A DNA stretch of 56,879 nucleotides, taken from the IMG/VR virus record IMGVR_UViG_2541047887_000008; one strand, written 5' to 3'. Made by a program: the position numbers. Source of the DNA: a virus (Duplodnaviria > Heunggongvirae > Uroviricota > Caudoviricetes). Of the stretch, positions 48,001-51,000 are shown piece after piece (position 1 is the stretch's first letter; every line of letters begins with the position of its first letter).

Positions 48001-51000
48001 AATTGCTGTATATCAGGAAAGATTTGCTTACCGGGTATCAGAATTCAACGAAAAACAAAGCAGCAGCAAAAGGACGGAGCGTCGTTACTGTAAATTATTA
48101 CATGACGACAATCGCTGGAATGTTTCAGTTTGCTGCAGATCACGGTTACTTAGAAGCAAATCCCTTCCAGGGAATTAAGCCTCTTAAAAGAGCCAGGGCA
48201 GAGCCAGATCCGCTAACTCGTGACGAATTTATTCGCCTGATAGATGCTTGCCGACATCAGCAGACGAAAAACCTGTGGTCATTGGCTGTGTACACAGGAA
48301 TGCGTCACGGTGAACTGGTCTCCCTGGCCTGGGAAGATATCGATCTGAAGGCAGGAACAATTACCATCAGGCGCAATTATACGAAACTTGGTGAGTTCAC
48401 TCTACCGAAAACTGAAGCAAGCACAAACAGGGTTGTGCACCTTATCCAGCCCGCTATCAGTGTCCTGAAAAATCAGGCTGAAATGACAAGACTGGGTAAG
48501 CAGTACAACATCAAGGTGCAACTACGTGAATATGGACGTTCAGTGAACCATGAATGTACTTTCGTGTTTAACCCTCAAGTGGTTAGAAAAAGCGAACAGG
48601 TAGGTTTTGTCTACAAAGTCGATTCTGTAGGTGACTCATGGGAAACAGCCATTAAGCGTGCAGGGATCAGGCATCGAAAGGCATACCAGTCACGACACAC
48701 TTATGCGTGCTGGTCATTATCTGCCGGAGCAAACCCAAGCTTCATTGCCAGCCAGATGGGCCATGCAAGTGCCCAGATGGTATTCAATGTATACGGAGCA
48801 TGGATGACTGACAGCAATGCAGAACAGATCGCAATGCTGAATCAGAAGCTGACAGATTATGTCCCAATGATGCCCCATAGTCACCAAAGTGACACCAGAG
48901 GCTTATTAAAATCAGTAAGTTAATCCTTAATACCCGTCATGTTAACTGCGTGGAGGGTAACACCACGCTTTATGCCCTGCCGAAACCCGAGGTTGTCCTG
49001 CGCTGGCGTGAGCAGACCACAGATGACTTCCGCTTCTGTTTTAAGTTTCCGGCGACCATTTCGCATCAGGCAGCATTACGGCATTGCGATGATTTAGTGA
49101 CTGAATTTTTGACCCGCATGTCACCGTTGGCTCCGCGCATTGGACAATACTGGCTGCAACTGCCTGCCACATTCGGCCCACGGGAGCTGCCTGCGCTTTG
49201 GCATTTTCTCGATTCTCTTCCCGGTGAATTTAATTATGGGGTGGAAGTCCGCCATCCACAGTTTTTCGCCAAAGGGGAAGAGGAACAAACGCTTAATCGC
49301 GGTTTACATCAGCGCGGCGTTAATCGGGTGATTTTTATTAGACACGTTTAAATACACTACCTAAAGCGATACAATCTAGGTATCAGTTTTGAGGTGGTAA
49401 ACAATGAAACGTGTCATTTCATACATTCGTTTCTCATCAGAGAAGCAAGCTAAAGGCGACTCACTCCGCAGACAATCTAAGATGGTCACTGATTGGCTTA
49501 AGGCTCATCCTGAGTACTATCTGGATGAATCCCTTACTTTTCGTGATTTAGGCGTTAGCGGGTTTACTGGTAAGCACTTGAAAGGTGGCTTAGGTGACTT
49601 TTTAACCGCTATCGAGAAAGGGCTTGTTAAAGCTGGTGATACGCTCTTGATAGAATCTCTTGACCGTTTGTCACGCCAGAACGTAGACCGAGCAAGTGAG
49701 CTATTACGAAACATTCTTCGCTCTGGTGTAGATGTAGTCACCTTGTCCGATGGTGAACATTACACACGAGAATCTCTTAAAGACCCGTTAGCTCTGATTA
49801 AAAGCATTCTGATAATGCAGCGGTCGCATGAGGAGAGTTTGAGGAAGTCTGAGCGTATACAAGCTGCATGGAACCGTAAAAAAGAACTCATCTCTGAAGG
49901 TATCAAGATTTCTAAACGTTGTCCTGCATGGCTTAAGCTTAATGATGACCGTAAAAGCTTCTCTGTGATACCTGAGAAAGTGGAGACTGTGAAGAGGTGC
50001 TTTCAGCTACGGTTAGAGGGTAAGTCTATCTGGGAGATTGTCAGAACTCTTAATGATGAAGGTCACCAGTCGATGAGCCAGTATAAGCCGGGTTCATTTG
50101 GTCAAAGCTCAGTACAAGACCTTCTGAAGAATCGCTCTGTAATTGGTTACTTCACACCTAAAGGCTGTGAGGAGATAGCTGGTTATTATCCTGCAATTAT
50201 AGATGAAACAACATTCTACAAAGTTCAACAACTATCACATTCTCGTTATGGAAAGAGGTCTGTTTCAGATAAACCATTGAGTGTGAATCTCTTTAAAGGT
50301 GTTATCCGTTGTTCTGAATGTGGTCATGCTCTGATTATCACAGGCTTTAGCGATACAAGAAACGGGATTTATCGTTGTCCTCTTCGTAATGAAAACCGTT
50401 GTAGTGCTAAAGGGCTGTCACGTAAGCAAACCGATGGTACATTGCTTGCCCTGCTATCTCGTCTTGACCGATTTGATAGCGATACGACGAATACCATAGA
50501 TACGCTGAAGCTACACCGTGAACACATCTCAAGCAATATAGAAAAGCTGGTACAACTATCACTGGAAATTGAAGACTTGTCCGCTATTACCAGCAAACTA
50601 AGACAGTTAAAAGGTGAGCTATCACAGGTTGATGCTGATATCGAGAAGGAGACACAACGCCTTAAATCTATTGATGTGGGTTGTTTGTCTGATTGTGACT
50701 TGACTACAAAGGCGGGAAGGATTGAAGCACAACTGATAATCAAAAGTGCTGTTAAAGAGGTCGTTTTAAATACTGCTAAACGTCGCTGTAAAGTGACTTT
50801 TCACAATGGTAGAGCAATCACCTTACCAATAACAGAAACCCCCTCAGAGGACGTTACAGAGGCTATACAGTCGCTTTCTGAAGTCACTGAGAGGGGGTTG
50901 ATAGATGTTGATGAGGTTATCATATAGTTGAGATTCTATCGTCAGAATCGCTTGTTAGGATTCACACTAAACTTCTTCAAAGTACTACCTGTACCAGCAT

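What the first reader, a model, noticed from the sequence alone, without database searches (positions are those of the whole stretch)
48924..49403. Two different mobile elements appear to share one disrupted host gene (yecE-like)
The tyrosine integrase of the lambda-like prophage ends at 48923. A host-like DUF72 reading frame runs 48950..49351, and in that frame similarity to my recollection of YecE begins about at the codons for NCVEGNTT. The frame then terminates where the AT-rich element with the serine recombinase begins. That implies tandem insertions into one gene, with a prophage att junction near 48935..48955 and a second junction near 49335..49350.
Basis: partly seen in the sequence, partly recalled or inferred. 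Interest (0 to 1): 0.6.

Follow-up and report, generated by a model that had tools for sequence, protein, structure and literature searches.

The report
Two mobile elements split yecE
The E. coli gene yecE is cut into pieces by two unrelated mobile elements that inserted independently at two sites about 385 bp apart; the first insertion site is a well-known phage hotspot, but the second element looks like an undescribed parasite of Felix O1-type phages.

Summary

- **The host fragment.** Window 48930..49335 is yecE nt 74-479 of 819, 97% identical to K-12.
- **Left element.** A stx-less relative of the phiP27 / yecE-type Stx phages ends here. Its tyrosine integrase gene is 47610..48923. Its attR has an exact 11-bp core, TTAACTGCGTG, at 48942..48952.
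- **Right element.** An AT-rich element of about 11-12 kb begins here, carried by a large serine recombinase (49404..50927). attL and attR share only TGATTTT (49329..49335).
- **Independence.** Other E. coli genomes show the empty site, either element alone, or both together. In strain JKHS016 the three yecE pieces (1-96, 74-479, 473-819) bracket both elements exactly.
- **Frequency.** Among 5,426 complete genomes about 416 carry the prophage junction, 275 the serine-recombinase junction, and 16 both. About 21 would be expected if the two were independent.
- **Mobility of the right element.** An 11.5-kb metagenome contig is a circular permutation of it and holds the predicted attP.

yecE is a published phage hotspot, so the tandem is ordinary. 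The side lead is the right element. It has Felixounavirus-like GC and its own tape-measure and baseplate-hub genes, but no capsid genes. That resembles Vibrio PLE satellites, and I found no description of it.

The parts
1..48941 (.). Lambdoid prophage related to the yecE-type Stx phages, phiP27 and PhiR49_2. Its right end is here. Its left end (attL) lies about 250 bp beyond window position 1. It carries no stx.
   Evidence: It is collinear with phage PhiR49_2 from record position 40724 down to 1. It also resembles phiP27 and Stx2_12E129_yecE. Only 489 nt separate the tRNA genes from the nanS-p-like ORF, too little for stx.
47318..47554 (+). Excisionase gene of the prophage.
   Evidence: The 78-aa ORF corresponds to CDSs annotated 'excisionase family protein' in SW070917 and EC9682.
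47610..48923 (+). Lambda-type tyrosine integrase, 437 aa.
   Evidence: Pfam Arm-DNA-bind_2 at 9.8e-24 and Phage_integrase at 3.1e-18. It is 99.8% identical in nucleotides to PhiR49_2 int.
48930..48952 (+). Prophage attR. It is a 23-bp block of imperfect phage/host homology, with the exact 11-bp core TTAACTGCGTG at 48942..48952. Strand exchange is inferred within TTAACTG (48942..48948).
   Evidence: Comparison of attL, attR, attB and attP. The 23-bp overlap of yecE pieces 1-96 and 74-479 in JKHS016. Nakamura et al. 2021 (PMC8112680) report a 21-bp att for yecE phages.
48930..49335 (+). Internal fragment of host gene yecE (DUF72), nt 74-479 of 819, roughly codons 25-160.
   Evidence: 97.3% identity to K-12 yecE. 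Matches in 5,419 genomes. Pfam DUF72.
48950..49351 (+). Mechanical ORF over the yecE fragment. It starts at GTG (Val32 of YecE) and ends with 5 element-derived codons (F I R H V) and TAA. It is not a functional gene.
49329..49335 (+). attL of the serine-recombinase element. TGATTTT is the only sequence shared by attL, attR, attB and attP. The crossover dinucleotide is most likely the TT at 49334..49335.
   Evidence: Junction comparison. The dyad centre of attP falls on this TT. The 7-bp overlap of yecE pieces 74-479 and 473-819.
49336..49357 (+). attP-derived half-site of the element, TATTAGACACGTTTAAATACAC.
   Evidence: The half-site reads the same in 11 of the 12 independent copies compared, the window's included. 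It mirrors the other attP arm, with 14 of 22 positions symmetric. It is present in the attP of contig L019.
49404..50927 (+). Large serine recombinase, 507 aa, the integrase of the element.
   Evidence: Pfam Resolvase, Recombinase and Zn_ribbon_recom domains. Distant match to the C-terminal domain of the phage A118 serine integrase.
49336..56879 (.). Left 7.5 kb of the serine-recombinase element, which is about 11-12 kb in full. It is cut by the end of the window. GC is 39.8%.
   Evidence: Complete copies: L003 at 12.2 kb, L002 at 11.6 kb, JKHS016 at about 10.8 kb, and the circularly permuted L019 at 11.5 kb. GC.
50942..51736 (-). Dit-like baseplate-hub protein, 264 aa.
   Evidence: Pfam Dit_like and phrog_3721. 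72% amino-acid identity to SME50_130, the gene directly after the tape-measure gene in Felixounavirus SME50.
51879..54002 (-). Tape measure protein, 707 aa.
   Evidence: Pfam TMP_3 and phrog_4036. 29% identity to the 742-aa SME50 tape measure protein, with a conserved N-terminus. Its best phage relatives are Ounavirinae.
51797..51863 (-). 67-nt internally palindromic unit upstream of the hub gene. A second copy at 54022..54088 lies upstream of the tape-measure gene.
   Evidence: The unit is absent from phage SME50.

Best explanation
Chromosomal yecE has been hit by two separate site-specific integrations.

**First insertion.** A lambdoid prophage of the yecE-integrating phiP27 / Stx-phage group, here without stx, used its lambda-type tyrosine integrase. 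It recombined its attP with the attB at yecE nt 86-96 (core TTAACTGCGTG). That left int next to attR at 48930..48952.

**Second insertion.** An AT-rich element of about 11-12 kb used a large serine recombinase. It recombined its roughly 46-bp attP, which has imperfect dyad symmetry, with a second attB around yecE nt 473-479. The crossover lies in the T-run of TGATTTT. That left attL at 49329..49335, with the recombinase gene reading inward 68 bp away.

**Result.** The 406 bp between the two is the orphaned middle of yecE. The gene is inactivated. The order of insertion cannot be told, and each element should be able to excise on its own.

**Shown:** the homology, the exact junctions, all four occupancy states, and attP-bearing forms of both element families.

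**Inferred:** the exact crossover bases, the activity of these particular copies, and the yecE 5' and 3' pieces that must lie outside the window.
For: - yecE nt 74-479 lies at 48930..49335.
- Integrase and serine-recombinase domain architectures.
- Prophage-only locus EC9682: attL is yecE 1-96 / core / dinI arm, and attR is int / core / rest of an intact-length yecE.
- Element-only locus YZLc1-3: yecE is otherwise uninterrupted.
- Tandem loci SW070917 and JKHS016. In JKHS016 the pieces 1-96, 74-479 and 473-819 rebuild yecE. Their overlaps of 23 bp and 7 bp equal the two att homologies.
- attP of the prophage family is contiguous in the genome record of phage CharmingMan, in the order int-attP-dinI.
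- attP of the serine-recombinase element is found exactly as predicted in the 11,473-bp contig L019. That contig is a circular permutation of the element with no yecE flanks.
- The best dyad centre of that attP is TT.
- The junction reads the same in 11 of 12 independent copies.
- Frequencies: 675 genomes with either junction, 275 with the serine-recombinase junction, 16 tandem. About 21 tandems would be expected under independence.
- Nine IMG/VR loci show the tandem with two different int families.
- yecE is a published Stx/lambdoid integration site with a 21-bp att (PMC8112680; PMC3603311).
Against: - The window contains neither the prophage attL nor the element's attR. The outer yecE pieces are therefore inferred from relatives.
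- The closest complete genome, JKHS016, is only 99.1% identical over the junction region. It matches the window's part of the element only in separate pieces, at about 81-98% identity.
- The dyad symmetry of attB centres 2 bp away from the T-run (12 of 20 positions at AG, against 7 of 20 at TT). The exact crossover dinucleotide is therefore not fixed.
- No attP of either element was found in IMG/VR.
Confidence: 0.93

Rival explanations
1. One composite mobile element. On this reading the serine-recombinase region is part of the lambdoid prophage, and the DUF72 piece is phage-borne cargo rather than a remnant of the host gene.
For: IMG/VR prophage calls merge the two into single 'viral' contigs. 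Both are phage-related.
Against: - Each element occurs alone in yecE, with the remainder of the gene intact.
- The fragment is 97-100% identical to chromosomal yecE and collinear with it.
- GC is 51.6% in one element against 39.8% in the other.
- A separate 11.5-kb attP form of the right element exists.
- Different int alleles pair with different serine-recombinase alleles.
Confidence: 0.02
2. The insertions are into a prophage-borne, yecE-derived secondary attB, not into chromosomal yecE. Nakamura et al. 2021 described such 'attB-in-prophage' sites.
For: Prophages can carry yecE-derived att sequences: a 100-bp copy at 87% identity (PMC8112680). Phage phi80 carries a fossil yecD-yecE(1-96)-core junction. 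The window does not show the outer flanks.
Against: - The fragment here is 406 bp at 97-100% identity. That is far longer and closer to yecE than the 87%-identical prophage-borne copies.
- It also contains the second attB, at nt 473-479.
- Tandem loci of the same arrangement are flanked by yecD and by yecN-cmoA-cmoB.
Confidence: 0.03
3. This rival concerns only the nature of the right element. On this reading it is a decayed remnant of a temperate myovirus prophage, or a plain integrative island, and not a helper-dependent satellite.
For: - It keeps only two tail genes.
- PGAP labels one variable gene 'transposase', and IS elements interrupt some copies.
- No satellite hallmark genes (capsid remodelling, small terminase subunit) and no defence genes were recognised.
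Against: - Size is uniform at 10.8-12.2 kb, with precise att ends, in unrelated strains.
- An excised or concatemeric 11.5-kb form exists.
- The recombinase is intact, and the Rep-like gene is intact in the full copies.
- The source lineage of its tail genes, Ounavirinae, is treated here as strictly virulent. That statement is from my own knowledge and was not tested.
- The hub is 72% identical to the phage's while the tape measure protein is only 29%, the same pattern as PLE11 against ICP1.
Confidence: 0.35

Closest known systems
yecE-integrating lambdoid and Stx phages: phiP27, P12 of O145:H28 strain 112648, Stx2_12E129_yecE, PhiR49_2
   Same: The integrase and excisionase module is the same, 99.8% identical to PhiR49_2 and 95% to the phiP27 int end. 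The target and core are the same. So is the int-attP-dinI layout (PMC8112680).
   Different: There is no stx operon between the tRNA genes and the nanS-p-like gene. The structural region differs from PhiR49_2.
Prophage arrays and prophages-in-prophages in E. coli (Nakamura et al. 2021, PMC8112680); integration hotspots (Bobay et al. 2013, PMC3603311)
   Same: Several mobile elements pile up at one locus. yecE is listed among the protein-coding genes disrupted by phage integration, and those papers describe such genes as occasional hotspots.
   Different: Here the two elements do not reuse one att site, and neither nests in the other. They use two distinct attB sites inside one gene, through a tyrosine and a serine recombinase respectively. 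A 406-bp piece of the gene is left orphaned between them.
Large serine integrases of phages and islands: A118/LI, phiC31, Bxb1, CcrAB, XisF
   Same: Resolvase, recombinase and zinc-ribbon domain architecture. An attP of about 46 bp with imperfect dyad symmetry. The sites share only a very short sequence. The gene is adjacent to attP.
   Different: The sequence is very divergent. NCBIfam XisF and CcrA hits fall far below their cutoffs. The A118 C-terminal domain is matched only at E=2e-4. No recombination directionality factor was identified.
Vibrio cholerae PLE satellites of the virulent myophage ICP1 (Mathur, Boyd et al. 2026, PMC12987554)
   Same: - Small island, 11-12 kb here.
- A large serine recombinase serves as integrase.
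- It has its own replication initiator.
- It has its own tape measure protein and baseplate hub, with the hub much closer to the phage's than the tape measure protein is (72% and 29% here; 41% and 20% for PLE11).
- It has no capsid genes.
- Its GC matches a virulent myophage rather than the host.
   Different: - Host and presumed helper differ: E. coli and Felixounavirus.
- It integrates in a protein-coding gene.
- No tail assembly chaperone, capsid-remodelling gene or nuclease gene was recognised.
- Helper dependence is entirely untested.

Membership tests
YecE / DUF72 (host gene) | Sequence homology to yecE, collinear with it | tested here: met
   97.3% nucleotide identity to K-12 yecE nt 74-479. 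Pfam DUF72 at E=1.3e-31. Only 406 of 819 nt are present, so this is a fragment and not a gene.
Lambda-type tyrosine-integrase prophage at yecE (phiP27 group) | Integrase with an N-terminal arm-binding domain and a tyrosine-recombinase catalytic domain | tested here: met
   PF12167 and PF00589. Reading the sequence directly, box I is TGMRHGEL and box II is SRHTYA...GHAS...NVYGAW.
Lambda-type tyrosine-integrase prophage at yecE (phiP27 group) | Excisionase gene directly upstream of int | tested here: met
   ORF 47318..47554. Its homologues are annotated as excisionase.
Lambda-type tyrosine-integrase prophage at yecE (phiP27 group) | Junction carries the att core shared by attB, attP, attL and attR | tested here: met
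   TTAACTGCGTG is present in attB, in attR (the window and 11 other loci) and in the fossil attL of phi80. EC9682's attL reads TTAACTGTGTG and CharmingMan's attP reads TTCAACTGCGTG, each one base different.
Lambda-type tyrosine-integrase prophage at yecE (phiP27 group) | Matching attL with the yecE 5' end at the other prophage end | not testable with these tools
   attL lies about 250 bp outside the window. It is present in the relatives EC9682 and JKHS016.
Stx-converting phage | stxAB operon between the Q/tRNA region and the lysis genes | tested here: not met
   Only 489 nt, with no ORF of 90 aa or more, lie between the tRNA genes (29560..29809) and the nanS-p-like ORF (27217..29070).
Large serine recombinase integrative element | Resolvase catalytic domain, recombinase domain and zinc ribbon in one protein of about 500 aa | tested here: met
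   PF00239, PF07508 and PF13408. The motif YIRFSSEKQ places the presumed nucleophile at Ser11; this is read from the sequence and is an inference.
Large serine recombinase integrative element | attP of about 40-50 bp with imperfect dyad symmetry around a central dinucleotide | tested here: met
   The best dyad is 14 of 22 positions around TT. The attP was observed in nature in contig L019.
Large serine recombinase integrative element | Crossover at a 2-bp core identical in attB and attP | tested here: inconclusive
   The crossover is confined to the T-run of the shared TGATTTT, where three TT positions are possible. The symmetry of attB itself centres 2 bp away.
PLE-like phage satellite | Small island with a large serine integrase and its own replication initiator | tested here: inconclusive
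   The integrase criterion is met. The Rep-like gene is seen only in full copies beyond the window end, and its hits are weak: PHROG replication-initiator families at 1e-7, and HTH_36 below its cutoff.
PLE-like phage satellite | Encodes a partial tail pathway (tape measure protein plus baseplate hub) homologous to a virulent helper's, and lacks capsid, portal, terminase, sheath and tube genes | tested here: met
   The tape measure protein is 29% and the hub 72% identical to the adjacent SME50 genes. No other phage structural genes are present in the full copies.
PLE-like phage satellite | Helper-triggered excision, replication, packaging, and interference with the helper | not testable with these tools
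   There is only indirect support: an attP-bearing 11.5-kb contig of unknown sample type.
PLE-like phage satellite | Sequence homology to V. cholerae PLE proteins | not tested

The most novel reading that the evidence does not exclude
The AT-rich serine-recombinase element that begins at 49336 may be an undescribed E. coli phage satellite, analogous to Vibrio PLEs. On this reading it parasitises virulent Felix O1-type myophages (Felixounavirus). It would build chimeric tails from its own tape measure protein and baseplate hub plus helper parts. It sits at one fixed site in yecE (nt 473-479) in at least 5% of complete E. coli genomes.
Probability: 0.4. Interest if true: 0.7.

Novelty: new member of a known kind. 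Interest (0 to 1): 0.35.

Why it matters
**For annotation.** The locus shows that a 'prophage' called here by automatic tools is really two elements separated by 406 bp of host gene. IMG/VR merges them. PGAP sometimes annotates the N-terminally replaced yecE remnant as an intact DUF72 protein.

**For biology.** The tandem itself adds little. yecE is a known, dispensable hotspot, and the co-occurrence is about what independent insertion would give.

**The real value is the second element.** It is a precisely bounded and evidently excisable island of 11-12 kb. It has Felixounavirus-like base composition, its own tape measure protein and baseplate hub, and a fixed serine-integrase site. If it is a satellite of Felix O1-type phages, it would extend the chimeric-tail strategy beyond Vibrio. 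That strategy was only recently shown for PLEs. It would also bear on phage therapy and phage typing that use Felix O1-like phages.

Tried and rejected
- **attP searches in IMG/VR.** Exact searches for the serine-recombinase element's attP and for the lambdoid attP found nothing.
- **IMG/VR relatives.** The recombinase's relatives there were all prophage calls of the tandem, not free elements.
- **Defence and naming libraries.** PADLOC gave only an orphan methyltransferase hit. NCBIfam gave nothing beyond generic recombinase and tape-measure hits.
- **Literature.** Searches combining yecE, serine recombinase, satellite and Felix O1 / Felixounavirus found no description of the element.
- **stx.** I looked for stx in the prophage and found none.
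- **67-nt palindromic unit.** I looked for this unit, which lies upstream of the tape-measure and hub genes, in phage SME50. It is absent, so it is not a helper promoter copy.
- **attB dyad symmetry.** I tried to use it to pin the crossover dinucleotide, and the result was ambiguous.
- **Alternative crossover.** I considered a crossover in the second shared block, TTAGACA. I rejected it because the observed attL keeps the extra TAT.
- **Composite-element reading.** I considered and rejected it (see rival explanations).
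Full report
**1. The observation**

The ORF table shows the 437-aa integrase at 47610..48923. It also shows a 133-aa frame at 48950..49351 and a 507-aa recombinase at 49404..50927.

- Pfam assigns Arm-DNA-bind_2 plus Phage_integrase to the first.
- It assigns DUF72 (E=1.3e-31, profile positions 22-138 of 217) to the second.
- It assigns Resolvase, Recombinase and Zn_ribbon_recom to the third.

GC is 0.54 over the DUF72 piece and drops to 0.42-0.36 to its right.

A megablast of 48900..49420 hits 5,419 of 5,426 complete E. coli genomes at the gene annotated yecE. 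In genomes with an uninterrupted yecE the match always ends at query position 436, which is window 49335. It starts at position 31 or 43, which is 48930 or 48942.

Against K-12-type strain EPI300, window 48930..49335 equals yecE nt 74-479 of 819 at 97.3% identity without gaps.

**2. The left junction**

The left neighbour is a lambdoid prophage. It is collinear with Escherichia phage PhiR49_2, with 99.8% identity over the int-xis end. It is also related to phiP27 and to the Stx phages named after their yecE integration.

The window begins at the ATG of the prophage's dinI-like gene. The attL junction is therefore just outside the window, about 250 bp away.

Strain EC9682 carries only this kind of prophage, and I took its junctions from there:

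- attL reads ...GAGTATGCCCGCAACTTTAACTGTGTG|ATACGGAATTTTTAAAAATC...
- attB reads ...GAGTATGCCCGCCACTTTAACTGCGTGGAGGGCAAC...
- attR, in the window, reads ...CCTTAATACCCGTCATGTTAACTGCGTGGAGGGTAAC....

Phage and host share an imperfect 23-bp block (48930..48952) with an exact 11-bp core, TTAACTGCGTG (48942..48952).

In EC9682 a T/C difference inside the core sits on the attL side. That places strand exchange in the 7 bp TTAACTG, an inference that assumes its phage carried the T.

The attP order int-core-dinI is contiguous in the genome record of phage CharmingMan.

A second int family, only 72% identical in nucleotide sequence, uses the same core.

This agrees with the 21-bp att reported for yecE phages by Nakamura et al. 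2021 (PMC8112680). It also agrees with the listing of yecE among genes disrupted by prophages in Bobay et al. 2013 (PMC3603311).

**3. The right junction**

Strain YZLc1-3 carries only the right-hand element. There, 12.2 kb sits between yecE nt 1-479 and the rest of the gene, followed by yecN-cmoA-cmoB. The junction sequences are:

- attB: ...AATCGGGTGATTTT|AGACAGCCGCC...
- attL (window): ...AATCGGGTGATTTT|TATTAGACACGTTTAAATACAC...
- attR...GTGCATTTAGACCTTGATGATTTT|AGACAGCCGCC....

Only TGATTTT is common to all of them (49329..49335).

The attP rebuilt from the two element ends has its best dyad, 14 of 22 positions, around a TT in the T-run. Its distal arms are GTG(C/T)ATTTAGAC and GTTTAAATACAC. 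This is the layout expected for a large serine integrase. That expectation comes from established knowledge of phiC31, Bxb1 and A118-type systems.

The element-side half-site reads the same in 11 of 12 independent copies.

It is a circular permutation of the element, in the order MTase, right end, attP, recombinase, hub, tape measure protein and onward to Rep. It has no yecE flanks. The Rep-like ORF continues across the join between the contig's end and its start. The element therefore exists in an excised or concatemeric form, and the junction mapping is independently confirmed.

**4. Independence of the two insertions**

All four occupancy states exist: empty, prophage only, element only, and both.

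In JKHS016, the closest complete genome, yecE is recovered as nt 1-96, 74-479 and 473-819. The 23-bp and 7-bp overlaps are exactly the two att homologies.

| Junction in 5,426 complete genomes | Count |
|---|---|
| Either junction | 675 |
| Serine-recombinase junction | 275 |
| Both, with this int family | 16 |
| Prophage junction (derived from the above) | about 416 |

Under independence about 21 tandems would be expected, so there is no sign of exclusion or facilitation. These counts are lower bounds. Megablast misses the divergent int family, and the genomes are not phylogenetically independent.

All nine IMG/VR loci holding this recombinase are tandems, five with the divergent int. The tandem has therefore arisen repeatedly.

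**5. Mechanism**

Integration of the prophage is carried out by Int, with Xis and Int presumably acting together for excision. This follows from family knowledge; the genes are intact here.

Integration of the second element is carried out by the large serine recombinase. No directionality factor was recognised.

The two attB sites are about 385 bp apart, and neither insertion destroys the other's site. The order of insertion is therefore undetermined, and separate excision should be possible.

The 48950..49351 frame is a by-product. It starts at an internal GTG (Val32) and ends in element sequence, so yecE is non-functional in this strain.

**6. What the second element is**

The window holds its left 7.5 kb:

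- the recombinase;
- a Dit-like hub protein (50942..51736, minus strand);
- a 707-aa tape measure protein (51879..54002, minus strand);
- five small ORFs with no family hits.

Full copies add a Rep/HTH-like protein, an orphan adenine methyltransferase and variable cargo. They have no capsid, portal, terminase, sheath or tube genes.

Several features point to Felixounavirus:

- GC is 39-40%, the same as Felixounavirus SME50 (38.9%) and unlike the prophage (51.6%).
- The hub is 72% identical to SME50_130.
- The tape measure protein is 29% identical to the SME50 tape measure protein, with a conserved N-terminus.
- These two genes are adjacent, in the same order, in the phage.
- Full copies also carry a 160-nt non-coding copy of a unique SME50 locus with two CAGAATTTTAAAAT boxes.

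This combination mirrors what was recently shown for Vibrio PLEs. They encode their own tape measure protein, tail assembly chaperone and baseplate hub, and they assemble chimeric tails with ICP1 parts (PMC12987554). A tape measure protein in a satellite is otherwise rare (PMC12822802).

Ten literature searches found no description of the E. coli element. Helper dependence is untested, so I hold the satellite reading at about 0.4.

**7. Verdict**

The finding is correct and cleanly resolved. As a phenomenon it is ordinary: a known phage hotspot that is doubly occupied at about the rate expected by chance. The part worth following up is the serine-recombinase element itself.

Noticed in passing
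window 49336..56879; full copies at L003 16035..28267 and L002 20435..32010, plus the whole of L019: The serine-recombinase element has Felixounavirus-like GC. It carries its own tape measure protein and baseplate hub, homologous to adjacent Felix O1-type phage genes. It has a Rep-like gene and no capsid genes, and an 11.5-kb attP-bearing form exists. This is a PLE-like satellite candidate with no description found.
   Followed up: partly
window 27217..30908: The prophage resembles Stx phages around the Q / tRNA / nanS-p region, but it has no stx. Only 489 nt lie between the tRNA-Arg, tRNA-Arg and tRNA-Met genes (29560..29809) and the 617-aa nanS-p-like ORF.
   Followed up: partly
window 51797..51863 and 54022..54088: Two copies of a 67-nt internally palindromic unit (GTGCTACGTGAAAT...TTTACGTAGCTCAC) lie just upstream of the hub gene and the tape-measure gene. 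Related elements L003 and L019 have only the copy upstream of the hub. The unit is absent from phage SME50. It is possibly an operator of the element itself.
   Followed up: partly
L003 26310..26465 and L002 about 30617..30784 (beyond the window's right end): Full copies of the element carry a non-coding stretch of about 160 nt that is 67-70% identical to a unique locus of Felixounavirus SME50 (52604..52759), with two CAGAATTTTAAAAT boxes 130 nt apart. L003 also carries 81 nt that are 80% identical to a divergent-promoter region of the phage (61286..61363).
   Followed up: partly
L020 (phage phi80, JX871397) 2400..2560: phi80 carries a fossil attL of a yecE-integrating phage: the end of yecD, yecE nt 1-96, the core TTAACTGCGTG and the phage arm, followed by dinL. 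It is annotated there as a DUF72 N-terminal pseudogene. This is evidence that left-end modules carrying host DNA are exchanged among lambdoid phages.
   Followed up: partly
L007, L011, L013, L015 (int at about 8219..9480): A second integrase family, only 72% identical in nucleotide sequence and with a different attP arm (GTTGCCGTCACATTAACTGCGTG), targets the same 11-bp yecE core. It also occurs in tandem with the serine-recombinase element.
   Followed up: partly
hit H30, NZ_AP045781.1 2554670..2555021: In strain 23CRST022, yecE homology starts only at window 48984 (yecE nt 128) and abuts a phage bet gene. This is a third kind of disruption of yecE, either another insertion point or a deletion.
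   Followed up: no
L004 3004..3774 (EC9682): PGAP annotates the yecE remnant downstream of the prophage as an intact 256-aa DUF72 protein. Its first codons come from the 3' end of the int gene. This is probably an annotation artefact, and it hides the gene disruption.
   Followed up: no
window 1 and window 56879: Both window ends coincide with start codons. Position 1 is the ATG of the dinI-like gene. Position 56879 is the ATG of a 96-aa ORF on the minus strand. The window therefore seems to have been cut at gene boundaries.
   Followed up: no
L019 about 11424..11456: The metagenome contig ends with a Nextera adapter sequence (CTGTCTCTTATACACATCTGACGCTGCCGACGA). This explains why no terminal overlap marks it as circular.
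   Followed up: yes
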